From an uncultured Candidatus Saccharibacteria bacterium (GTDB lineage Bacteria > Patescibacteriota > Saccharimonadia > Saccharimonadales > Saccharimonadaceae): a DNA stretch of 64,000 bases. Below are positions 230 to 12,809 of this stretch, piece after piece (the stretch's first letter is position 1; the number at the start of each line of letters is the position of its first letter). The stretch covers positions 38,339 through 102,338 of the forward strand of contig CAURZF010000002.1 in the NCBI GenBank assembly GCA_963529335.1, in the 5' to 3' direction. The position numbers were made by a program, and so were the translations under genes. The notes beneath the pieces were generated by a model, which had not been told where the DNA came from, did no database searches, and worked only from the letters and a program-made list of their open reading frames with translations.

Positions 230-296
230 TTTTCCACAAAAACGTGGAAAACTATAGCGTTTCAACAAGCAAATAGACGCTATATCTAGCGTCTAT
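230..296 (-). terminator. Two hairpins downstream of the yvcK-like gene (possible terminator)
   Basis: The hairpins are ATAGACGCTA-tatc-TAGCGTCTAT (273-296) and TTTTCCAC-aaaaac-GTGGAAAA (230-251). The U-tracts are weak, so termination is plausible but not proven. Confidence 0.4.
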
Positions 297-324: not shown

Positions 325-1332
325 TTATGCAAAATATATCCGCATCAGCTGGCGTGCTACTGCGTCAGGGTCGTGCCGGATAAAACTGCGTACCGCTGCA
401 ATCGGATCGCTCGACTGGGCGCCCGACCAAACTTTCTTTGCTAGAATGCTAGCACCGCGGAATTCGTAGTGCTGGCGTTTTAGCTCGCTGATATCATATT
501 GCACCACATGCTCACCGTCATGAGCATACTTATCCATTAGTTCTGCCGATGGCTGATCAGTGTTAAAAACTACATAGTCAAGGAATTCACTGCCTGCCAA
601 ACGCTCAATCTCGCTAGCAAAATCCACCACGCTCAAATTATCAGTCGGACCAGGCTTAGTAACCAAATTACAGACAAAGACACACTTCGCCGATGTCGCC
701 GCTAGCGCCTCCTGAATTTCTCGAATCACCAGCGCCGGAGCTAAACTGCCATACAGATTGCCCGGTGCAATCACCACCATGTCAGCCTCCAGGATCGCCT
801 GGACAGCTGCTGGGTGCGCTACTGCCTCTGGCTCTAGCCATACCTTCGGCTGCTTAGATATATCGGCATGTGCGATCTTGAATTGCCCTTTGATCGGCTC
901 GCCCGAAGCGCTCTCGACGCACAGCGTAATATCGGTTAGAGTTGTCGGGATTACTCTACCTTGAATATTTAGAACTTGGCTAGCCAGCTGCACCGCCTCG
1001 CCAAAGCTGCCAGTCATTTTCTCGAGTGCTGTCAAAAACAGATTACCGAAAGCATGCCCCTTCAAACTACCATCGTCAAAACGATAATTAAACAAATCGC
1101 GCACCCGCGGGCTATCGCTCAGCGCTACTAAGCATTGCCGCACATCGCCCGGCGGCAGCACGCCAAGTTCGTCGCGCAGCTGTCCCGTTGATCCGCCATC
1201 ATCTGCCATATTGACCAGCGCTGTCAAATCAGACACGTATTTTTTGAGACCTGTTAGCAGCGTGAAGCTGCCAGTGCCGCCTCCGATAACTACAATTTTT
1301 GCTCCGCTGTCGCCATGTTCTTCGCTCATCAT
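325..1332 (-). CDS. yvcK: YvcK/CofD-family (UPF0052) gluconeogenesis-factor-like protein
   Basis: 335-aa ORF. The N-terminal VVIGGGTGSFTLLTGLK and MADDGGSTGQLRDELGVLPPGDVRQC blocks are signatures of the family. Its ATG overlaps the upstream stop (ATGA at 1329-1332). Confidence 0.88.
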   Translation of the reverse strand: MMSEEHGDSGAKIVVIGGGTGSFTLLTGLKKYVSDLTALVNMADDGGSTGQLRDELGVLPPGDVRQCLVALSDSPRVRDLFNYRFDDGSLKGHAFGNLFLTALEKMTGSFGEAVQLASQVLNIQGRVIPTTLTDITLCVESASGEPIKGQFKIAHADISKQPKVWLEPEAVAHPAAVQAILEADMVVIAPGNLYGSLAPALVIREIQEALAATSAKCVFVCNLVTKPGPTDNLSVVDFASEIERLAGSEFLDYVVFNTDQPSAELMDKYAHDGEHVVQYDISELKRQHYEFRGASILAKKVWSGAQSSDPIAAVRSFIRHDPDAVARQLMRIYFA

Positions 1333-2336
1333 TCCCCTTCTGGCGTATTCACTCCGCTATCGCCGCGCAGTTCCTTCTTGCCTTTTAATTCATACTTGAT
1401 ACCAGTCATATCGCTAGTCATATAGTCGTCGTTGAGCAGATTAACAAACTTCGCCGCATCCTTGGCATCCATGATAATAATCTCGCCCGTCGCATCGTCC
1501 GTCATTAGTTCCAAGCCCATCTCATCGGCTTGCTCAACAACCTGATCCTGCGTCACCAGACCGACGTCGACTTTTTGCAGCTTAGTTACTAACGATTTAG
1601 TATCGCGCACTAACGCATCGAAAGTCATACCTTCAGGGAACTTTAACTTGAAATTTTTCTCGATTTCAGCAATTTTTTCCTCGGCAACAGCGAACTGTTT
1701 AGCGTCGTAACCAAACAAACGGATGAATTTCGACTCGTTAAAGGCAAAGATATCACCGCCGGCAATCAACACTTGATTGTCTGGCGTGATTTTCAGGCCG
1801 ACATCAGCACTGAACGGTTGAAACGAATCGCCGTTATACATCCAAGCGGTTGCACCTTTAAGCACTTGCGACTGCGGCAAAATCTTGGCGACAAAAAACG
1901 GCTCGGCACCCTGGCGGCTGAAACGCGCTACGATTCCCTTGACCTTCTTGAATTCATGGTCGCCTTCGCGGAACACCTCTAGCGTTTCCTCGCCGTAGCG
2001 AATCTGCTCAATCACCTCTTGCGCGTGATCTACCCGGTCCAAGGTAGTACGCTCCAACACATTATCCTCAGCAGCGGCCGCTTCAAAGTCGCGCACTGTC
2101 ATGCCAGTGGCAGCACCAGTTTGCACCTGGCTAATCATGTCGTAAAGGAATAATACCTTGAGCTGCGCCTTGAGCTCCTTGGCGTAATTAGTGGCGTAGA
2201 CAGTGTAGCCCTTCGTAAATAGAAATAAGTCGATTTCGAGCTCGTCCTTATGCGCATCAGCTTGATTCGCCCAGAGGAAAATATCAGTCGGCTCTGGCGG
2301 CTGGTCATCAGCCGGTATTGATTGGTCATTATTCAT
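1329..2336 (-). CDS. Hypothetical protein, possibly DUF4868 / KwaB-like
   Basis: I moved the start to the ATG at 2334-2336 (MNNDQSIPADD...), because the longer ORF would run into the helicase gene. TAGAAT (2349-2344) lies 7 nt upstream. I see no catalytic motifs. The overall pattern (FFVAKILPQSQVLKG ... DIFAFNESKFIRLFGY ... NLLNDDYMTSDMTGIKYELKGK) recalls DUF4868. That call is from memory and was not searched. Confidence 0.75.
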   Translation of the reverse strand: MNNDQSIPADDQPPEPTDIFLWANQADAHKDELEIDLFLFTKGYTVYATNYAKELKAQLKVLFLYDMISQVQTGAATGMTVRDFEAAAAEDNVLERTTLDRVDHAQEVIEQIRYGEETLEVFREGDHEFKKVKGIVARFSRQGAEPFFVAKILPQSQVLKGATAWMYNGDSFQPFSADVGLKITPDNQVLIAGGDIFAFNESKFIRLFGYDAKQFAVAEEKIAEIEKNFKLKFPEGMTFDALVRDTKSLVTKLQKVDVGLVTQDQVVEQADEMGLELMTDDATGEIIIMDAKDAAKFVNLLNDDYMTSDMTGIKYELKGKKELRGDSGVNTPEGE

Positions 2337-2373
2337 GATATATATTCTACTACAATTATTAGACGCTATTCTA

Positions 2374-3909
2374 CTATTGCACGGCATCTTCGCCAAAATG
2401 TTTTTGCAAACGCATTTTGATTGAACCGTGATGGCGGCCAAGTTTCTGGCTCATCGCAGCAATACTTTCGCCGTTAATGAACATTTGGCGCAATTCATCG
2501 TCATCAGCCTTAATCCATGGTTTATAAGCATTAGGATAAGTCTGGCGCATTTTAGCAATTTTAGCCGACCAGCTAGAATTAGTACTGTTCACTTTTTTGG
2601 CGGGCGTAAGTTCGCCGGATGCGCGTTTGTCAGCTTTTGGCTGTAAGTGCGCGAACTTTTTAGCATCATCTGCCGCCCGCGCGCGCAGCTGCTTGTCAAT
2701 AGCATAGGCTTCGTCGCTCATCTGCAAAGCCATGCGGTTAATACCCGTCAAATACAAATTATCAATATCGCGCACCCGGCTAAGCGCCACATAGCCCATG
2801 CCCGGCACAAAGGCTTTGCGGAGGTCAATTCGCGCACTATCCAGCGTCATGCCTTGGCTTTTGTGGACAGTAATCGCCCACGCTAAACGCAGCGGAACTT
2901 GGCTAATGCTAGCTCGTTTGCGCGTCCCATCGCGCAACTCCCAAGTATCAGGCTGCATAGTCACCGTCCGGCCATTACGAAACTCCACTACCGGATAATC
3001 CGTCGCTGGCTCGAAATCGACCACCATGCCGATACTGCCATTAGCATAACGCCGCGCCTGATCGTTTTTGACCGCCATCACTAATGCGCCTATTTTAAGG
3101 GTCAGTACCTCTGGCGCTAGTACGCTACGCTGCAAATTATCAACGTAGTTGTTACTACCAGTAGTGTGGCGTTGATACAACACCTCGTCGCCCGGCAATT
3201 CAGCCAGCCTGGCTTGATTAATTCTATCGACGTCAACATTCACAGTATGCAATTCTGTCAGATCTGCTCCGGCTGGCGGTTGATATTCGGTCCGCTCTAA
3301 CAGCTGCTCGGCGTGGCGGCGGCGCAAATCGCCAGCCCGCATCGCCGTCAAGATTTCTAGCAGCGTATCGCCGTCGCGCTGGCGAAACTGCTCGCTCAGA
3401 TACAATACCGTCGGATCAAGCTCGCGCCACGCCGATGAATTCACTACGAACCCGCCCTCGCGGCCTTGCGCTCGATTAACTGGCGGCAGCTGAAAGAAGT
3501 CGCCAGACAGTACCACTTGAATGCCGCCGAACGGCTCGTCGACTCTCTTGCGTACTAAACGGCAAACTTCATCAACCATGTCCAAGCGGTAATCGTGCAA
3601 CATGCTAATCTCATCAATAATCAAGACATCGGTTTTTTCGATAATTTCGCGGCGGCTTTTGCTGACATGCTCGGCAAAACCATTCGGCAGGCGGTCGCTA
3701 ACGCCAATTCCCGCCCAAGCGTGGATCGTCGCGCCGCCCAGATGCGTTGCCGCCAGCCCGGTCGTCGCTGTCACCGAGACATACTTGCCGCTAGCCTTGC
3801 TCAAGTTGATGAATTGATTCAGCACGAAAGTCTTACCCGTTCCTGCCGGGCCGGTCAGCAGTGCGCTTTCGCCGCTCAATAATATTTCTAAGGCTAAATC
3901 TTGCTTCAC
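2374..3909 (-). CDS. Pif1/RecD-like SF1B DNA helicase with C-terminal helix-turn-helix tail
   Basis: It has Walker A LLTGPAGTGKT, Walker B LIIDEISML, and the late helicase motifs WAITVHKSQGMTLD and GMGYVALSRV. The C-terminal tail (DDDELRQMFINGESIAAMSQKLGRHHGSIKMRLQKH) is typical of bacterial Pif1-like proteins. It uses a GTG start, with TATAAT 7 nt upstream. Confidence 0.85.
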   Translation of the reverse strand: MKQDLALEILLSGESALLTGPAGTGKTFVLNQFINLSKASGKYVSVTATTGLAATHLGGATIHAWAGIGVSDRLPNGFAEHVSKSRREIIEKTDVLIIDEISMLHDYRLDMVDEVCRLVRKRVDEPFGGIQVVLSGDFFQLPPVNRAQGREGGFVVNSSAWRELDPTVLYLSEQFRQRDGDTLLEILTAMRAGDLRRRHAEQLLERTEYQPPAGADLTELHTVNVDVDRINQARLAELPGDEVLYQRHTTGSNNYVDNLQRSVLAPEVLTLKIGALVMAVKNDQARRYANGSIGMVVDFEPATDYPVVEFRNGRTVTMQPDTWELRDGTRKRASISQVPLRLAWAITVHKSQGMTLDSARIDLRKAFVPGMGYVALSRVRDIDNLYLTGINRMALQMSDEAYAIDKQLRARAADDAKKFAHLQPKADKRASGELTPAKKVNSTNSSWSAKIAKMRQTYPNAYKPWIKADDDELRQMFINGESIAAMSQKLGRHHGSIKMRLQKHFGEDAVQ

Positions 3910-3939: not shown

Positions 3940-4935
3940 CTACTTATCCCAAGCAAAGCCGTTACCAAAATGGCCGTAGCGCGCTGTTGGTTCGTATTGC
4001 GGACGAGCCAGCTGCAGCGTATCAATAATACCCGCTGGACTAAGGTCATAACCTGCGATTGGCTTCTCAACGCCGTCAACTACCGCTGTAGCCTCAACTG
4101 GTTGGTCGTGGCCGATTGCGTACGCCAAGCGCACCAACACTTCCTGAGCTGCAAACTTTTTAAGATAATCAACTGCGACCCGCCGCGCCATATAGGCACC
4201 GCTGCGATCGACCTTAGTGGCGTCCTTGCCGCTAAACGCCCCGCCGCCTAGCGGAATCCGCGGGCCATAATTATCAACTGCTAATTTGCGCCCGGTCAAA
4301 CCAGCGTCCGCCGCGAAACCGCCAATTTGCCAATCGCCTGCCGGATTTATATGCAGAGAAATACCATCAAAATCACCTGCCACATATTTTTGCTGCGCAA
4401 ACCACTGCCGCACTGCAACCTCCAGCTCGTCGTGCGGCGCATTCTGGAAGCTAGCGACAATCGCCGCAATCTGGCCGCCATAAGTCGTCACCTGCGTTTT
4501 GCCGTCATACGGCCATTTCTCATACAAAAAGCGATTCAAGGCCCGCGCCAAAGCATACTCTAGCGGCAATAATTCTGGTGTCTCAGCGCAAGCATAACCA
4601 ATCATTACCCCTTGATCGCCAGCACCGCCCGCGTCCACACCCTGAGCAATCTCTGGGCTCTGGCGTGCAATCCGCTCAATAATTTCCACGTCGTCGCCAG
4701 CCAGCCGCCGCGCAATCTGCTTGACGTCAACTAGCTCGCTCGACGATACTTCGCCAGTTAGAAACAGTGCGCCATGGCCGCCGCAAGCTTCAATCGCCAC
4801 TCGGGCTTGCGGGTCTTTGGCAAGATACGCGTCCAGAATAGCGTCGCTGATTTGGTCGCAAATCTTGTCCGGATGTTTCGGCGAAACGCTCTCAGCCGTA
4901 CGATATACTGCTTGATTGTTAGGTTCTACAGACAT
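3940..4935 (-). CDS. metK: S-adenosylmethionine synthetase (compact form)
   Basis: It carries the MetK signature blocks SPKHPDKICDQISDAILD, GAGDQGVMIGYA, GLTGRKLAVDNYG and GGGAFSGKDATKVDRSGAYMAR. It lies directly downstream of a SAM-I riboswitch. Confidence 0.95.
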   Translation of the reverse strand: MSVEPNNQAVYRTAESVSPKHPDKICDQISDAILDAYLAKDPQARVAIEACGGHGALFLTGEVSSSELVDVKQIARRLAGDDVEIIERIARQSPEIAQGVDAGGAGDQGVMIGYACAETPELLPLEYALARALNRFLYEKWPYDGKTQVTTYGGQIAAIVASFQNAPHDELEVAVRQWFAQQKYVAGDFDGISLHINPAGDWQIGGFAADAGLTGRKLAVDNYGPRIPLGGGAFSGKDATKVDRSGAYMARRVAVDYLKKFAAQEVLVRLAYAIGHDQPVEATAVVDGVEKPIAGYDLSPAGIIDTLQLARPQYEPTARYGHFGNGFAWDK

Positions 4936-5164: not shown

Positions 5165-5584
5165 CTATAGACGAACGCCAGCCCGCGCTTTGTTTGCCCA
5201 CTCATCCGCTAGCTCGTTCTGCTCGTGGCCGACGTGGCCGCGCACCCAAACCAGCTTCGGTTGCGTCGATTGGTAAAGCGCATAAGCTTGCTGCACGAGA
5301 TCAAGATTCTTAATTTCGCCGCCTTTTTTACGCCAACCTTTAGCAGCCCAGCCTGGCGCCCACTTGGTCAACACATTGATCCAAAATTCGCTATCGCTAT
5401 GAATTTCGCACGGCTCATCGCCAGCTAATTCCATAGCCGCAATCAGCGCCAGACCTTCCATACGAATATTCGTCGTCTGGTCGTCTTCGCTACCCAAAGC
5501 TACCGGCTGGCCGTTTTCAATTACCGCATAACCGCCTGGACCCGGATTTGGGCTAGCACTACCGTCTGTAAAAAATACTCTCAC
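5165..5584 (-). CDS. rnhA: Ribonuclease HI
   Basis: It has the RNase H type 1 blocks FTDGSASPNPGPGGYA, TNIRMEGLALIAA, IHSDSEF and GHVGHEQNELADEWA. I chose the GTG at 5582-5584, preceded by AGGAAAG, because the longer ORF overlaps the upstream gene. The start is uncertain. Confidence 0.85.
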   Translation of the reverse strand: MRVFFTDGSASPNPGPGGYAVIENGQPVALGSEDDQTTNIRMEGLALIAAMELAGDEPCEIHSDSEFWINVLTKWAPGWAAKGWRKKGGEIKNLDLVQQAYALYQSTQPKLVWVRGHVGHEQNELADEWANKARAGVRL

Positions 5585-5598
5585 TTCTTTCCTGCTTT

Positions 5599-6189
5599 CT
5601 AAATATCGCGGACTGGCCGCAGCAGCTTCAGCTCGTCTGGCATATACCACTTGTTGCCGCGATTATCTTGTTCATATTTATACTCTATCATGTGATCAGC
5701 CTGAAAATAGTCGCCCGTACCAACAATCTTGTACTGAATATACATTTTGCGTACTGAATCGCTCTGCGGCATCGGCCCGCGATACAAACGCAGCTCAAAA
5801 ATCTCGCCTGGCTTGAGAAATTTATTCAAGTCACCTCGCTGCCCTAATATCTCATATTTATCAAGCTCCACGTCAAAGCTCGCGTGGTTGCGAATATGCG
5901 CCCACACCTCGAGGTACTTATTATCGCCCGACGGATGCGCCTCGGTGCGCTCAACTTCTATCTCGGGAATCACTTTTTGCCCGTTGGCCGAGTGATATTG
6001 ATCGGGCTGAGGCTTACTGTCTGACTTCCTAGTATCTGCAGCAACCCCTGAAGTGTCTTTATCGAAGTTATTTTCGTCCCTACTGCCGCGATTATCTTGC
6101 GGCGAGACCATATCATTATTATTAAGACGCGCCAAATATTCGTCATCACCATCCGGCTCGCCAAAAATTAAATCACGCAACCATCCCAT
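5599..6189 (-). CDS. Hypothetical protein (disordered N-terminus plus about 115-aa beta-rich C-terminal domain)
   Basis: 196-aa ORF. TACAAT (6201-6196) lies 6 nt before the ATG, a leaderless layout. I recognised no motif. It sits immediately upstream of rnhA. Confidence 0.65.
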   Translation of the reverse strand: MGWLRDLIFGEPDGDDEYLARLNNNDMVSPQDNRGSRDENNFDKDTSGVAADTRKSDSKPQPDQYHSANGQKVIPEIEVERTEAHPSGDNKYLEVWAHIRNHASFDVELDKYEILGQRGDLNKFLKPGEIFELRLYRGPMPQSDSVRKMYIQYKIVGTGDYFQADHMIEYKYEQDNRGNKWYMPDELKLLRPVRDI

Positions 6190-6221
6190 ACATCTATTGT
6201 ACCGTATTTAGACAAAGCTAC

Positions 6222-6260
6222 ACATACGCTATATATAGTGGCACTATATATAGCGTATGT
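6222..6260. repeat. 39-bp perfect palindrome in a divergent promoter region
   Basis: The sequence is ACATACGCTATATATAGTG-g-CACTATATATAGCGTATGT: 19-nt arms that are exact reverse complements around one central base. Confidence 0.95.
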
Positions 6261-6323
6261 ACTGCCGTGGAAAAATCAGGGAAATCTTCGAGGCACGCTA
6301 GACTACTGTTATTTTACTTATGT

Positions 6324-8529: not shown

Positions 8530-8865
8530 CTATGCTCTCAACTTTTTTATCAAAATATCATAACCGTCAGTCACCTCATCTTGACGGCTGACGCCTAATT
8601 CCGCCATAATGCGCCACAGATCATCGGTTATAGCGGCAGGGTCGGCGTTCTCGCCAGCTAATCGCTCTAATTCCATAAAGTCGCCCAAGCCTTCCACCGA
8701 GTCGATACACACTTCCACATCATTCAGCTTACCAGTCCGGCGAGTCTTCGACAAGTCCGAAAACGGCACGAAACCTAGTTCCTTGACGATAGCGATCATG
8801 GCGTCTGGATCACCAACTTCCGTTTCGCGCTCAATACTATCCAGCTGCCCAGTATATAAATGATA
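8530..8865 (-). pseudogene. N-terminally truncated CYTH / CyaB-like (triphosphate tunnel) gene remnant
   Basis: The 89-aa ORF (8530-8799) contains only the C-terminal part of the fold (KLNDVEVCIDSVEGLGDFMELERL...). The frame stays open upstream to a TGA at 8866-8868 (YHLYTGQLDSIERETEVGDPDA-MIAIV...). The preceding gene ends at 8872, so the N-terminal half is absent. Confidence 0.5.
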
Positions 8866-9520: not shown

Positions 9521-9916
9521 TCAAACCATCGATACGTCCCGCGAATGACGCTCCAGCCAATCAGCAATCGCATCAATATCGAAATGATCGGTCGCGGCGC
9601 GGACAGCGAAATCTTCTAATTCAACAGCCGCCGCAGTCATTCTCCAGCCATTTCTCGCCAAAAAGATACCAGCAATCGTCACCGCTGTACGCTTATTGCC
9701 ATCGGTAAAGATGTGGTCTGCTATGCAATTACGCAAATAAACCGCCGCCTTTTCGTGAACTGACACATATTGCTCCTCACCAAAAACAACTGTTTGCGGC
9801 GCCGCCACCAGCGACTTTAGCCCCAGTTGATCGCGTACGCCATGCGAGCCGCCAAAATCCTCAATTATCCAAAAATGCAGCTCTAGAATTTCGTCAATCT
9901 CCAGATAGCGAATCAT
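9521..9916 (-). CDS. doc: Doc (death-on-curing) family toxin, Fic fold
   Basis: Doc-type Fic motif HIFTDGNKRTA (HxFx[DN][AG]NKR). It overlaps the antitoxin gene by 4 nt. Confidence 0.9.
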   Translation of the reverse strand: MIRYLEIDEILELHFWIIEDFGGSHGVRDQLGLKSLVAAPQTVVFGEEQYVSVHEKAAVYLRNCIADHIFTDGNKRTAVTIAGIFLARNGWRMTAAAVELEDFAVRAATDHFDIDAIADWLERHSRDVSMV

Positions 9917-10198: not shown

Positions 10199-10693
10199 TT
10201 ACCGCACGATTTCGCTATGCAGCTCCTGCCATTTCATATGCGCCCCATACGCTCGAGCTGGCGCGTCAACCTCACTTTCCTGGAGCAACAACTCCTCAGG
10301 GTCGATAAACATTACTTCGTCACCCTCTTCACCTGGCGCAAAGTCAAAATTCTCCGGCCAGACACGGCAATAAAAACAGATTTGATTGGCATCAATCCGC
10401 TCAATATACATCTCGTCCGACGCATCAAACAGTTGATAGCGCAAATCGCCTTTATAGCCGACTTCTTCGAACAACTCGCGTTTCAACGATAATTCAAAAT
10501 CCTCATCGTAATCCATGCCTCCGCCCGGCAAATCCCAGTACGTCCGATTGATTTCCTTAACGACCAAAATTTGCCCAGCATCGTTATAAATCAAGGCTTT
10601 GAGCGAAATGCGATACAGACAATCCAGATGATCTGTGCCGTCTAGATTTTGCGTAATGATATGTCCTTTGGTGATTTTTGTCATGAGAGTCAT
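10199..10693 (-). CDS. NUDIX hydrolase
   Basis: Nudix box GGGMDYDEDFELSLKRELFEEVGY. Confidence 0.85.
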   Translation of the reverse strand: MTLMTKITKGHIITQNLDGTDHLDCLYRISLKALIYNDAGQILVVKEINRTYWDLPGGGMDYDEDFELSLKRELFEEVGYKGDLRYQLFDASDEMYIERIDANQICFYCRVWPENFDFAPGEEGDEVMFIDPEELLLQESEVDAPARAYGAHMKWQELHSEIVR

Positions 10694-10803
10694 TATACTA
10701 CACCCGAACGCCAGATGGCTGATACCATTTCACCTACAGTATATTCTGTCTTTCCAATATCCATGATTAACTGCTCATTGGGTGTTAACACGTTGGGAAT
10801 TAT

Positions 10804-11421
10804 CTAATTGTGATACTCTTTTATTTTACCGTCATATTCAGTCAAAAGATTCTTTGAATAAATTTTTTCATTTTTTGAATTTCTAACTTCTTTCCAAAGA
10901 ATAGAAGCTACTTTTAATTTGTTCGAATAGTTGCGGCTATTTTCATCTGCACAGAAATCCTTTAAAAATTGATTCCATTGACAAACCGAATTATCATATT
11001 TGGCATAATCTGACTCGCCATAATACACCTTTAGCAAATCTTTGATTGTAAATTTGCTATCCTTTTCGCTTTTTACTTTCCGCCAAGCAGTCGCCATATC
11101 GGCAGTAAATTTAAAAGGTGTAATACCTGTTACGGCGGAGAAATATTCTCTAAATTTTGCGTTAAAGGAAAACCCACATTCAAGTAATGGCATATCTAGA
11201 GTAATATTTTCAACTTGCTTCTTTTCATTTTTTATTAGTGATTTTTTAATCAGATTACCCTTAAAGTACTGCTCAATAATGTGATTGAGTTCTTGTTTTG
11301 TACCTCTATATTCTAATCCTAATGACTTGCATATCTGTGAAAGTTCTTCACGATACCAATAATATTTATTAAACTCGTCAAACGATGCAATTTTATCAAA
11401 CTCAGGTCTACTTTCTATCAA
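10804..11421 (-). CDS. SAP-domain-containing hypothetical protein, visibly AT-rich (likely foreign)
   Basis: The N-terminal region YWYREELSQICKSLGLEYRGTKQELNHIIEQYF looks like a SAP helix-extended-helix motif. It has a TTG start preceded by GAGGAG with 8-nt spacing. Its base composition is clearly more AT-rich than the flanks. Confidence 0.7.
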   Translation of the reverse strand: MIESRPEFDKIASFDEFNKYYWYREELSQICKSLGLEYRGTKQELNHIIEQYFKGNLIKKSLIKNEKKQVENITLDMPLLECGFSFNAKFREYFSAVTGITPFKFTADMATAWRKVKSEKDSKFTIKDLLKVYYGESDYAKYDNSVCQWNQFLKDFCADENSRNYSNKLKVASILWKEVRNSKNEKIYSKNLLTEYDGKIKEYHN

Positions 11422-11465
11422 TATTTTAGCTCCTCAAAACTAATTTATTTTTTCATATCTAGTAT

Positions 11466-12809
11466 CTACAGCTCTCCGACCCTCACCCGCCGCTGCTCCG
11501 TCGTATCCCGCTCACGCACGGTGACCGTGCCGTCCTCCAGCGTCTGGAAGTCGATGACCACGCAGTGCGGCGTGCCGATTTCGTCTTGGCGGCGGTAGCG
11601 TTTGCCGATGTTGCCGTTGTCGTCCCACATCACTCGGCCTGGGTTGGCTTTGGCGAGTGCGGCGTAGACGTCGCGGGCTTTTTCCACCAATTCTGGCTTG
11701 TTCTTGAGCAGTGGCGAAACGGCAAATTTGACCGGCGCCAAGTGCTCTGGCAGCGCCAAGTACACCCGCTTTTCACCGTTTTGCTCGTCCTCGCGGTACG
11801 CGCCCGACAACACCGCCATTAGCGCTCGCTCGACACCAAACGACGGCTCGATGACGTGCGGAACAAATTTTGTGTTCGTTCCCTTGACGGTGTACTCCAT
11901 GCTCTTACCACTGACCCGCTGGATGTTCATCAAGTCAAAATCAGTTCGGTACGCGATGCCCATCAACTCCTCGCAGCCAATCGGATAATCGTATTCGATG
12001 TCGATCGTCTTTTTGCTGTAGTGCGCCCGATCCTCCGCTGGCACGTCCAGCTCGTGAATGTGCTCTGGTTTCAGACCTAGTTCTGCCAAAAAAGCATGTG
12101 TCGCCGCCAGTAGCTCATCAAATGCCTCCTGCCAATGCTCGGGATCGACGAAATATTCAATCTCCATCTGCTCAAACTCGCGAGAGCGGAAGACGAAATC
12201 GCGCGGCGCAATCTCATTACGAAACGCTTTACCCTGCTGAGCAATACCAAACGGTAAATTAGGGTAGAAACTATCGACGACGTTTTTGAAATTGGTGAAG
12301 ATACCTTGGGCGGTTTCTGGGCGGAGATAAGAAATACTGTCATCACTCTCGGTCGCGCCAACGTGCGTTTTGAACATCATATTAAAGGTGCGCGATTTGC
12401 TCAGCGGATTGCCATCGGGGCTTTTGATGCCTTTCTCAGCAATCACCGCATCCATCTGCTCCATGGTCATGCCATCTACATCAACGCCATTGTCCTTGAG
12501 GATATGATCGGTGCGAAAACGGCGGTGATTGACCGTGTCTTCGCACAGCGGATCGACGAAGGTATCAACATGCCCACTCGCCCGCCAGACCTTCTGGTTC
12601 ATCAAAATCGACGCATCCACGCCATACATATCGTCGCGCTCGTCAACAAACCGGCGCCACCATAAATTCATGATATTACGCTTCAGTTGCACGCCCAGCG
12701 GACCATAATCCCACGTACCGCTCAACCCGCCGTATACATCCGACCCCTGATAAATAAAGCCGCGGCGCTTGCACAGACTAATAATATCTTCCATTTTTGC
12801 TTGACTCAC
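11466..12809 (-). CDS. glyQS: Glycine--tRNA ligase (dimeric GlyQS type)
   Basis: N-terminal ISLCKRRGFIYQGSDVYGGLSGTWDYGPLGVQLKRNI and class II motifs (FRNEIAPRDFVFRSREFEQME; SFGVERA). It has a GTG start with an upstream GGAGAAAGGAG. Confidence 0.95.
   Translation of the reverse strand: MSQAKMEDIISLCKRRGFIYQGSDVYGGLSGTWDYGPLGVQLKRNIMNLWWRRFVDERDDMYGVDASILMNQKVWRASGHVDTFVDPLCEDTVNHRRFRTDHILKDNGVDVDGMTMEQMDAVIAEKGIKSPDGNPLSKSRTFNMMFKTHVGATESDDSISYLRPETAQGIFTNFKNVVDSFYPNLPFGIAQQGKAFRNEIAPRDFVFRSREFEQMEIEYFVDPEHWQEAFDELLAATHAFLAELGLKPEHIHELDVPAEDRAHYSKKTIDIEYDYPIGCEELMGIAYRTDFDLMNIQRVSGKSMEYTVKGTNTKFVPHVIEPSFGVERALMAVLSGAYREDEQNGEKRVYLALPEHLAPVKFAVSPLLKNKPELVEKARDVYAALAKANPGRVMWDDNGNIGKRYRRQDEIGTPHCVVIDFQTLEDGTVTVRERDTTEQRRVRVGEL

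What the first reader, a model, noticed from the sequence alone, without database searches (positions are those of the whole stretch)
1329..3909. KwaB-like (DUF4868?) protein without KwaA, paired with a Pif1-type helicase and translationally coupled to yvcK
The 335-aa product of 1329-2336 has no catalytic motif I can name. Its architecture, however, resembles from memory the DUF4868 domain of KwaB, the soluble partner in the Kiwa anti-phage system. The features are an acidic N-terminus, a central block ...FFVAKILPQSQVLKG...VLIAGGDIFAFNESKFIRLFGY..., and a C-terminal ...NLLNDDYMTSDMTGIKYELKGK.

Described Kiwa consists of a polytopic membrane protein, KwaA, plus KwaB. No KwaA-like gene is present here. 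Instead, the gene 37 nt upstream is an SF1B Pif1/RecD-like helicase with an HTH tail. The downstream stop overlaps the yvcK ATG (ATGA at 1329-1332). The unknown gene therefore sits where Firmicutes and Actinobacteria carry rapZ/yvcJ.

That leaves two readings. One is a helicase-partnered, membrane-independent KwaB-type module, a pairing I do not know to be described. The other is a lineage-specific partner of YvcK.
Basis: partly seen in the sequence, partly recalled or inferred. Interest (0 to 1): 0.7.

Follow-up and report, generated by a model that had tools for sequence, protein, structure and literature searches.

The report
KwaA-less KwaB homologue beside Pif1 helicase
A gene in an oral Saccharibacteria (TM7) genome is a real relative of KwaB, the DNA-binding part of the Kiwa anti-phage system, but it lacks the membrane sensor KwaA and is inherited like a conserved chromosomal gene next to a Pif1 helicase, so it is not a standard Kiwa system.

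Summary
The 335-aa ORF at 1329-2336 (-) is a full-length KwaB homologue. It matches Pfam PF16162 at 53.8 bits (cut-off 26.3). Its AlphaFold model (pLDDT 83) matches only solved KwaB structures (Foldseek E 1e-12). No KwaA was found.

It scores far below NCBI's KwaB equivalog cut-off (50.6 against 200 bits), and it does not behave like Kiwa.
- The organism is an oral Saccharibacterium. Relatives were confirmed in 101 species-representative genomes and 430 metagenome stretches.
- GC content matches the flanks.
- A Pif1-type helicase lies within the fetched flanks in 129 loci, co-oriented in 128. This holds across two gene orders and through inserted cargo genes.
- RNase HI is a frequent third neighbour.
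- In the window's clade the protein is at least as conserved as Pif1 or MetK.

The yvcK overlap is lineage-specific, because most relatives carry a GH1 glycosidase in between. Published Tn-seq in Southlakia epibionticum calls both the orthologue and the helicase non-essential.

My best reading is a soluble, KwaA-independent, KwaB-type DNA-binding protein that acts with or beside Pif1 on DNA. Whether it guards against foreign DNA or maintains the genome is unresolved. I rate it a new variant of a known kind, of moderate interest.

The parts
1329..2336 (-). KwaB-like protein, 335 aa. It has a disordered acidic N-terminus (residues 1-12), a Rossmann-like N-domain and a C-terminal DUF4868 domain. 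pI is 4.5.
   Evidence: ORF. Pfam PF16162 at 53.8 bits. PADLOC KwaB models. AF2 model pLDDT 83.3. Foldseek matches only KwaB, E 1e-12. pI.
1404..1949 (-). Stretch matched by the Pfam KwaB/DUF4868 profile (residues 130-311). It includes the lysines K160, K182, K203 and K252, which align with or sit next to the DNA-contact residues of E. coli KwaB.
   Evidence: DNA-contact residues are taken from bioRxiv 10.1101/2023.02.26.530102.
2337..2373 (-). 37-nt spacer between the helicase and the KwaB-like gene. It holds two TAGAAT -10-like boxes (2344-2349 and 2368-2373). The proximal box ends 7 nt before the ATG, and there is no Shine-Dalgarno sequence. This suggests the gene has its own promoter and a leaderless mRNA.
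   Evidence: Sequence. The promoter scan found TTGGCG-17-TAGAAT at 2396-2368. Similar TAGTAnAnT/TACAAT boxes lie about 6-10 nt before the ATG in seven of the ten divergent orthologous loci printed. This is an inference, not shown experimentally.
2374..3909 (-). Pif1-family SF1B helicase, 511 aa, with Walker A motif GPAGTGKT.
   Evidence: Pfam PIF1 at 125.9 bits and Pif1_2B_dom. It is below the NCBIfam RecD2 and RecD equivalog cut-offs. phrog_325 Dda-like helicase, E 2e-63.
2395..2601 (-). C-terminal helix-turn-helix tail of the helicase (residues 437-505), with the conserved motif YPNAYxPW...LGRHxGSIxxRLQKHFGED.
   Evidence: phrog_323, E 6.8e-7. The tail is conserved in both gene-order clades. 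The Southlakia orthologue is annotated 'tri-helical' by ECOD in Table S2 of PMC10633639.
1329..1332 (-). ATGA stop/start overlap between the KwaB-like gene and yvcK. It is a derived feature of the window's close relatives, not a conserved one.
325..1332 (-). yvcK (CofD-related). A syntenic neighbour, not judged to be a functional partner.
   Evidence: Pfam CofD at 316 bits. NCBIfam YvcK at 307.9 bits. A GH1 gene intervenes in most relatives.
5165..5650 (-). RNase HI, the third recurrent member of the conserved neighbourhood (rnhA ... kwaB-like ... pif1).
   Evidence: Pfam RNase_H at 97.4 bits. It recurs near the KwaB-like gene in most genome and metagenome loci.
273..296 (-). Terminator-like hairpin after yvcK, a possible end of the transcription unit.
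   Evidence: This is a consensus match only, and the count of such sites does not exceed the shuffled expectation.

Best explanation
**What it is.** The ORF encodes a soluble, KwaA-independent member of the KwaB (DUF4868) family. It is fixed as a vertically inherited chromosomal gene in Saccharibacteria (class Saccharimonadia). It is not part of a Kiwa system.

**Shown here.**
- It has the full KwaB two-domain fold.
- No KwaA gene is present.
- Across deep divergence, two gene orders and cargo insertions, the gene stays next to and co-oriented with a Pif1-family 5'-3' helicase that carries an HTH tail. RNase HI is usually close by.
- In the window's clade it is under purifying selection as strong as that on MetK or Pif1.

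**Inferred mechanism.**
- Like E. coli KwaB, it forms a dimer that binds DNA non-specifically in a basic channel. Candidate residues are K160, K182, K203 and K252.
- It works with or beside the Pif1 helicase on DNA intermediates such as forks, ends, R-loops or incoming DNA. It may act as a clamp or roadblock that a protein-displacing helicase could load, move or remove.
- The role is conditional, because both orthologues are dispensable in phage-free laboratory co-culture.

**Relative weights.**
- About 0.45: conditional genome maintenance or DNA processing together with Pif1.
- About 0.30: constitutive, membrane-independent restriction of phage or other incoming DNA.
- The remainder: the two genes are only syntenic neighbours.
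For: **Homology.**
- Pfam KwaB at 53.8 bits against a cut-off of 26.3.
- PADLOC KwaB models match.
- NCBIfam KwaB gives a full-length alignment at E 1.5e-13.
- A family profile matches solved KwaB at E 4.7e-5.
- Foldseek matches only KwaB, E 1e-12, over about 316 columns.

**DNA-contact residues** (hmmalign mapping; residues from the Kiwa paper).
- R142 aligns to K160 and R167 aligns to K182.
- K187 and R233 fall next to the invariant or near-invariant K203 and K252.

**No KwaA.**
- The 37-nt spacer and the 4-nt overlap leave no room for an adjacent gene.
- PADLOC found no KwaA hit at E <= 0.1 among ten window proteins, most of them predicted membrane proteins. None appeared among the 25 families listed for 44 further window proteins.
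- phmmer found no KwaA hit in six-frame ORFs of the window and 166 loci.
- As a positive control, a real KwaA scores E 1e-25.

**Vertical inheritance.**
- 101 species-representative Saccharibacteria genome stretches encode a relative. The 80 kept are 75-99% identical to the window protein and sit in the same block.
- A second clade, about 50% identical to the window protein, is also Saccharimonadales.
- GC content equals that of the flanks.

**Linkage to Pif1.**
- 129 loci carry Pif1 within the flanks, 128 co-oriented.
- 79 loci have the order pif1>kwaB and 50 have kwaB>pif1.
- Median gaps are 794 nt and 374 nt respectively.

**Constraint.** Within the window's clade, KwaB-like identity is at least as high as Pif1 identity.

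**Dispensability.** In Southlakia, SEML1_0265 (DUF4868) and SEML1_0264 (helicase) are called NE at all time points, with flat read counts (PMC10633639 Table S1).
Against: - No direct evidence exists for dimerisation, DNA binding, or contact with the helicase.
- Saccharibacterial genomes are highly syntenic in this region (GH1, yvcK and metK travel along too). Conserved neighbourhood within one class is therefore weak evidence of functional coupling.
- The helicase tail shows no co-evolution with the jump in KwaB-like sequence between the two gene orders.
- The gene seems to have its own promoter.
- Five non-phage loci with full 7-kb flanks lack Pif1.
- Residue mapping at 14% identity is uncertain. 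Two of the six DNA-contact positions (N134, D169) are not conserved.
- The protein is strongly acidic overall, with pI 4.5.
- All loci were found through the KwaB-like gene itself, so universality in the class was not measured without bias.
Confidence: 0.55

Rival explanations
1. The gene and the helicase form a fixed, membrane-independent, two-gene anti-phage or anti-plasmid module. The KwaB-like protein binds entering foreign DNA and blocks its replication, as in Kiwa. The Pif1 helicase replaces KwaA as the partner that gives access, specificity or self-protection.
For: - It is homologous to a proven defence effector in sequence and fold.
- Both genes are fully neutral in phage-free Tn-seq, as expected of defence genes. 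By contrast, rnhA and a UvrD-like helicase show growth defects.
- The helicase matches helicase components of PADLOC candidate systems: PDC-S68 at E 1e-19 and PDC-M16A at E 3e-12.
- The spacer between the two genes collects phage-like cargo in relatives: AAA_5/CobS-like plus DUF7192, PP2C-FHA, and an integrase nearby.
- Homologues occur on viral contigs.
Against: - Canonical Kiwa needs KwaA. Deleting either gene abolishes defence (Kiwa paper).
- Canonical Kiwa spreads by horizontal transfer and often sits in mobile elements. This gene is vertically inherited and syntenic, with host-like GC, and is as conserved as housekeeping genes.
- The helicase hits to PADLOC models cover only generic SF1 motor regions.
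- No PADLOC candidate system pairs a KwaB-like protein with a helicase.
- The cargo pattern fits equally well if the two genes are just conserved flanks of an insertion hotspot.
Confidence: 0.3
2. The KwaB-like gene and the helicase are functionally unrelated. They are neighbours only because this chromosomal block is inherited intact in Saccharibacteria. The KwaB-like protein has a separate, possibly non-DNA, role, for example ligand binding by its Rossmann-like domain.
For: - Other unrelated genes (metK, GH1, yvcK) are also syntenic across the same loci.
- The gene has its own promoter-like element.
- Insertions of up to 5.9 kb are tolerated between the two genes.
- There is no co-evolution signal in the helicase.
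- No fusion proteins were found among representatives.
Against: - Adjacency and co-orientation survive a swap of gene order, whereas yvcK and metK adjacency do not.
- Both genes have the same neutral Tn-seq behaviour.
- The family's only characterised activity is DNA binding.
Confidence: 0.2
3. The KwaB-like protein is a lineage-specific partner of YvcK that takes the place of RapZ/YvcJ, as suggested by the ATGA translational coupling.
For: There is an ATGA overlap in the window and its close relatives.
Against: - A GH1 glycosidase lies between the two genes in most Saccharibacteria, and Pif1, LssY_C and GH1 do so in the other clade.
- The protein has no P-loop and no RapZ similarity.
- Its fold matches only KwaB.
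Confidence: 0.03

Closest known systems
KwaB of the Kiwa anti-phage system (E. coli ECOR8/ECOR49; PDB 9mrx, 9mtn, 9nyu, 9o0i; Pfam PF16162, NCBIfam NF041623)
   Same: - Same length, about 315-335 aa.
- Same two-domain fold, a Rossmann-like N-domain plus DUF4868.
- Same C-terminal motif, LLNDDY-x-S-x-(L/M)T-x-x-x-Y.
- Basic residues lie at or next to four of the six DNA-contact positions.
   Different: - Only about 14% identity.
- 50.6 bits against the 200-bit equivalog cut-off.
- No KwaA partner.
- The KwaA-contact residues P100/N101/Q103 and Y157 are not kept; they align to E116/E117/L119 and F172.
- Vertically inherited and highly conserved, rather than horizontally mobile and associated with mobile elements.
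Canonical Kiwa operons in other phyla (e.g. Verrucomicrobiae, loci L167-L169)
   Same: The KwaB component is a detectable full-length homologue, about 25% identical. It shares the N-terminal 'DIF' start and the C-terminal motif.
   Different: Those loci have a 180-aa KwaA overlapping the start of KwaB and sit among restriction-modification genes. The window locus has neither.
Bacterial Pif1-family SF1B helicases (e.g. Bacteroides Pif1, PDB 5FTB) and RecD2
   Same: The neighbouring gene has the Pif1 motor domains and the 2B/SH3 domain. The Southlakia orthologue was assigned to Pif1 structures by ECOD in PMC10633639 Table S2.
   Different: It carries a conserved C-terminal HTH tail. It is persistently linked to a KwaB-like gene. 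It scores below the RecD2 and RecD equivalog cut-offs.
Core-gene-flanked insertion or defence hotspots (as described for Pseudomonas, PMC10250203; title and abstract seen, paper not read)
   Same: In relatives, variable phage-like cargo is inserted between two conserved genes, here pif1 and the KwaB-like gene.
   Different: Here one of the conserved flanks is itself a homologue of a defence effector. The window itself has no cargo, only a 37-nt spacer.

Membership tests
Kiwa defence system (KwaA + KwaB) | A KwaB component carrying the DUF4868 domain (Pfam PF16162 above its gathering score) | tested here: met
   53.8 bits against a cut-off of 26.3, covering the whole profile. Six PADLOC KwaB models also match.
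Kiwa defence system (KwaA + KwaB) | KwaB equivalog by the NCBIfam NF041623 curated cut-off (200 bits) | tested here: not met
   50.6 bits, E 1.5e-13, with a full-length alignment. It is a homologue, not an equivalog.
Kiwa defence system (KwaA + KwaB) | KwaB three-dimensional fold (Rossmann-like N-domain plus DUF4868 C-domain) | tested here: met
   The AF2 model (pLDDT 83.3) matches only KwaB chains. Foldseek gives E 1e-12, probability 1.0 and about 316 aligned columns. TM is 0.43-0.50, consistent with a different domain angle.
Kiwa defence system (KwaA + KwaB) | An adjacent KwaA, a roughly 180-200 aa protein with four transmembrane helices, required for defence | tested here: not met
   There is no room next to the gene. 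PADLOC found no KwaA hit at E <= 0.1 among ten window proteins, most of them predicted membrane proteins, and none among the 25 families listed for 44 others. phmmer found none in the window plus 166 loci. The KwaA models detect a real KwaA at E 1e-25. A very divergent KwaA elsewhere in the genome is not excluded.
Kiwa defence system (KwaA + KwaB) | Residues of KwaB that contact DNA (R142, R167, K187, R233, N134, D169) | tested here: inconclusive
   Two align to lysines (K160, K182). Two fall one position from the conserved K203 and K252. Two are not kept. The alignment rests on about 14% identity.
Kiwa defence system (KwaA + KwaB) | Mobile, horizontally transferred, and often in mobile elements or defence islands | tested here: not met
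   The gene sits in the same syntenic block in all 80 genome loci and most metagenome loci. Its identity tracks that of the neighbours, and its GC equals that of the flanks. tblastn found no match in GenBank phages or PLSDB plasmids.
Kiwa defence system (KwaA + KwaB) | Protection against phage or conjugation | not testable with these tools
   The only available data are Tn-seq in phage-free co-culture, where the orthologue is non-essential.
Pif1-family SF1B helicase (neighbouring gene) | Pif1 motor domains and 2B domain, with an intact Walker A motif | tested here: met
   PF05970 at 125.9 bits against a cut-off of 25.9. PF21530 at 23.1 bits, just under its cut-off of 23.9. GPAGTGKT is visible in the translation.
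RapZ/YvcJ-YvcK-WhiA cluster | A P-loop RapZ-like protein conserved immediately upstream of yvcK | tested here: not met
   No P-loop or RapZ match was found. Adjacency to yvcK is not conserved.

The most novel reading that the evidence does not exclude
The KwaB-like protein and the Pif1 helicase form a previously undescribed two-component, membrane-independent DNA-surveillance module that became fixed in an entire bacterial class. The soluble KwaB-type clamp would bind incoming or aberrant DNA, and the helicase would replace KwaA as its controller. Alternatively, this is the ancestral housekeeping form from which the Kiwa effector was recruited.
Probability: 0.25. Interest if true: 0.75.

Novelty: new variant of a known kind. 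Interest (0 to 1): 0.5.

Why it matters
KwaB is known only as the effector of a mobile two-gene defence system that needs its membrane sensor, KwaA. This lineage keeps a KwaB homologue without KwaA, as a conserved chromosomal gene tied to a Pif1 helicase. That raises two possibilities:
- the KwaB fold can work without membrane tethering;
- defence effectors and housekeeping DNA-binding proteins exchange roles.

It also gives a functional lead for one of the conserved 'hypothetical' genes of Saccharibacteria. This group has reduced genomes and constitutive DNA uptake.

The question is directly testable. Southlakia epibionticum is genetically tractable, and insertions in both genes are viable (PMC10633639).

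Tried and rejected
- **YvcK/RapZ reading.** Rejected on comparative gene order.
- **Search for KwaA.** Nothing was found by PADLOC or phmmer. This Pfam copy lacks PF28043, so Pfam could not be used for KwaA.
- **Direct sequence match to solved KwaB.** Only marginal, E 0.3. Profiles and structure were needed.
- **Scan with alignment A1.** The search for related loci failed because A1 has no conserved stretch. Narrower alignments A3 and A4 worked.
- **Fusions or extra domains.** None were found in longer family members.
- **Co-evolution of the helicase tail with the KwaB-like sequence jump.** No signal.
- **tblastn against GenBank phages and PLSDB plasmids.** No match.
- **PADLOC candidate systems that pair a KwaB-like protein with a helicase.** None.
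- **Literature on DUF4868 or Kiwa in Patescibacteria.** Nothing beyond the Kiwa paper and an annotation table.

Full report
**1. Observation**

On the minus strand the window carries yvcK (325-1332), a 335-aa ORF (1329-2336), a 511-aa helicase (2374-3909), metK (3940-4935) and rnhA (5165-5650).
- The quoted peptide blocks, the 37-nt spacer and the ATGA stop/start overlap are all present.
- Orthologues support the ATG at 2336 as the start, because their conserved sequence begins at 'TDIFLWAN'.

**2. Is it KwaB-like?**

Yes.
- Pfam PF16162 (KwaB) matches at E 3.2e-14, 53.8 bits against a gathering score of 26.3, over the whole profile.
- Six PADLOC KwaB models match almost end to end.
- NCBIfam's KwaB model aligns over positions 10-305 of 306 at E 1.5e-13. 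It scores only 50.6 bits against the 200-bit equivalog cut-off.
- Plain sequence comparison with solved KwaB is marginal (E 0.3). A profile of the family reaches E 4.7e-5 over residues 42-317 of KwaB.
- An AlphaFold2 model built on 44 sequences (pLDDT 83.3, pTM 0.71) finds only KwaB chains in the PDB. Foldseek gives E 1e-12, probability 1.0, about 316 aligned columns and 14% identity. The next hit has E 0.66. TM-scores of 0.43-0.50 suggest a different angle between the two domains.
- According to the Kiwa paper (bioRxiv 10.1101/2023.02.26.530102), KwaB has a Rossmann-like N-domain and a DUF4868 C-domain. It forms dimers and binds ssDNA and dsDNA non-specifically in a basic channel. It stalls phage replication and needs KwaA.

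**3. Residue mapping**

I aligned E. coli KwaB and the window protein to the same profile.
- DNA-contact residues R142 and R167 align to K160 and K182.
- K187 and R233 fall one position from K203 (invariant in the family) and K252 (nearly invariant).
- N134 and D169 are not kept.
- KwaA-contact residues P100/N101/Q103 and Y157 align to E116/E117/L119 and F172.

This fits retained DNA binding and a lost KwaA interface. The alignment rests on low identity, so I treat the mapping as suggestive only.

**4. No KwaA**

- The gene is flanked by a 37-nt spacer and a 4-nt overlap, so there is no room for an adjacent gene.
- PADLOC KwaA models, which detect a genuine KwaA at E 1e-25, found nothing at E <= 0.1 among ten window proteins, most of them predicted membrane proteins. 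None appeared among the 25 families listed for 44 further window proteins.
- phmmer with two KwaA sequences found nothing in six-frame ORFs of the window and 166 related loci.
- More distant family members behave differently. Those about 25% identical, from Verrucomicrobiae, have KwaA overlapping KwaB and sit among restriction-modification genes.

**5. Organism and distribution**

- The closest proteins come from oral TM7/Saccharibacteria.
- 101 genome stretches in the species-representative collection encode a relative. The 80 kept are 75-99% identical to the window protein. They include Nanosynbacter and Saccharimonas aalborgensis.
- A second clade, about 50% identical to the window protein (about 42% for its representative P0130), is also Saccharimonadales. 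430 metagenome stretches encode further relatives.
- An exhaustive search of 1.84 billion cluster representatives found only 189 related clusters, so the subfamily is narrow.
- GC content of the gene equals that of its flanks.
- tblastn found no match in GenBank phages or PLSDB plasmids.

**6. Gene neighbourhood**

- All 80 genome loci have the order pif1 ... kwaB-like ... yvcK, wherever the contig reaches far enough.
- Most species have a GH1 beta-glucosidase between the KwaB-like gene and yvcK. Variable genes occur between pif1 and the KwaB-like gene: PP2C-FHA, a CobS-like AAA_5 ATPase with DUF7192, and unknowns.
- In the second clade the order is swapped: kwaB-like, then pif1, then (LssY_C), GH1, yvcK, then mraZ/rsmH.
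- Over all loci, 129 have a Pif1 gene within the fetched flanks and 128 of these are co-oriented. 79 have the order pif1>kwaB and 50 have kwaB>pif1. Median gaps are 794 nt and 374 nt.
- Only five non-phage loci with full 7-kb flanks lack Pif1.
- RNase HI recurs on the other side or nearby.

The helicase link is therefore persistent. The yvcK overlap is a recent local feature.

**7. Evolutionary rates**

- Within the window's clade, the KwaB-like protein is as conserved as Pif1 or more so. For example, pairs with Pif1 at 70-75% identity have a median KwaB-like identity of 77%.
- In the other clade it evolves faster. Pairs with Pif1 at 60-65% have a median KwaB-like identity of 46%.
- Between clades, pairs with Pif1 at 70-80% have KwaB-like identity of only about 51%.
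- This jump coincides with the swap in gene order and is unexplained. It could reflect a burst of change or a replacement by a distant copy.
- The helicase, including its tail, shows no matching jump.

**8. Experimental data from the literature**

In Southlakia epibionticum (Wang et al., Cell 2023, PMC10633639) the block is:
- SEML1_0262, RNase HI
- SEML1_0264, helicase
- SEML1_0265, DUF4868 protein
- SEML1_0266, GH1
- SEML1_0267, YvcK

Tn-seq calls 0264, 0265, 0266 and 0267 non-essential at all time points, with flat read counts. RNase HI becomes growth-defective. The tables name no AddA or RecB; RecJ and ExoVII are present. The co-cultures contained no phage, so nothing is known about defence.

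**9. Expression signals**

- A TAGAAT box ends 7 nt before the ATG, with no Shine-Dalgarno sequence. A second copy lies 24 nt further upstream.
- Similar boxes sit about 6-10 nt before the start codon in seven of the ten divergent orthologous loci printed, in both gene orders.
- I infer that the gene has its own promoter and a leaderless transcript. This is not shown.

**10. Copies on viral contigs**

- Three IMG/VR contigs carry relatives.
- L084 looks like a prophage end next to host rnhA-kwaB-pif1.
- L085 and L086 (37-38% identity) carry the gene inside an integrase-bearing element. Its neighbours are RecT, a PD-(D/E)XK-FtsK fusion, VRR-NUC, SNF2, PAPS-reductase/DUF3440 and ParB_N, again with no KwaA.
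- BFVD holds a 48%-identical fragment from a human-virome siphovirus.

**11. Interpretation**

The identification as a KwaA-less KwaB homologue that is vertically inherited and linked to Pif1 is well supported (about 0.9). The function is inferred.
- The only known activity of the fold is non-specific DNA binding that blocks forks.
- Pif1-type helicases are 5'-3' motors known to remove proteins and unusual structures from DNA (general knowledge).
- RNase HI is a further nucleic-acid-processing neighbour.

I therefore favour a soluble DNA-binding protein that acts with or beside Pif1 in a conditional DNA transaction. Strong conservation, vertical descent and the housekeeping setting point towards genome maintenance. 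Homology, neutral Tn-seq behaviour and the cargo hotspot keep a fixed defence role alive. Simple synteny without functional coupling remains possible.

**12. Novelty**

Pfam, NCBI and the Southlakia annotation table already label these proteins DUF4868/KwaB-like. I found no description of the following in the searchable literature:
- the absence of KwaA;
- the class-wide vertical conservation;
- the persistent Pif1/RNase HI neighbourhood;
- the rate jump between the two gene orders.

The Kiwa study analysed only complete KwaA+KwaB systems. I classify this as a new variant of a known kind, with interest 0.5.

Noticed in passing
L029:4636-5934; L055:3220-5802; L032:4718-5734; L041:5174-5860: In relatives, the space between pif1 and the KwaB-like gene is an insertion hotspot. 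It holds a PP2C phosphatase with an FHA domain, a CobS-like AAA_5 ATPase with DUF7192 (both match phage families), or unknown genes. The window itself has only a 37-nt spacer.
   Followed up: partly
related loci L001-L166 (analysis): KwaB-like identity jumps between the two gene orders. It is about 51% across orders even when Pif1 is 70-80% identical, yet within the window's clade it is more conserved than Pif1. The cause is unexplained; it could be a burst of change or a gene replacement.
   Followed up: partly
L085:1764-15649 and L086 (IMG/VR contigs): An integrase-bearing phage-like element carries a KwaA-less KwaB-like gene (37-38% identity). It sits among RecT, a PD-(D/E)XK-FtsK fusion (which matches PADLOC SspH), VRR-NUC, SNF2, PAPS-reductase/DUF3440 and ParB_N.
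   Followed up: partly
window 2344-2349 and 2368-2373 (-); L027, L034, L038, L043, L052, L105, L135 upstream of the KwaB-like start: -10-like boxes (TAGAAT, TAGTAnAnT, TACAAT) lie about 6-10 nt before the ATG in seven of the ten divergent orthologous loci printed. The six boxes within 6-8 nt have no Shine-Dalgarno sequence after them. This suggests a leaderless transcript.
   Followed up: partly
window 10500-11500: A low-GC patch (0.34-0.36 against 0.49 for the window) holds a 205-aa gene with a SAP_new25 domain (10804-11421, -). It may have been acquired horizontally.
   Followed up: partly
window 8530-8799 (-) and 9521-9916 (-): An 89-aa ORF matches only the last 80 positions of the CYTH domain and may be a truncated gene. 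A 131-aa Fic/DOC family protein lies nearby.
   Followed up: no
window 6220-6262: A long near-perfect palindrome (20-pair stem, 3-nt loop) lies upstream of the 196-aa ORF that overlaps rnhA, between divergent genes.
   Followed up: no
window 5599-6189 (-): A 196-aa ORF with no family match overlaps the start of rnhA by 52 nt. It travels with rnhA in many relatives at 33-48% identity. Going by gene order alone (homology not tested), its Southlakia counterpart would be SEML1_0261, which is non-essential.
   Followed up: no
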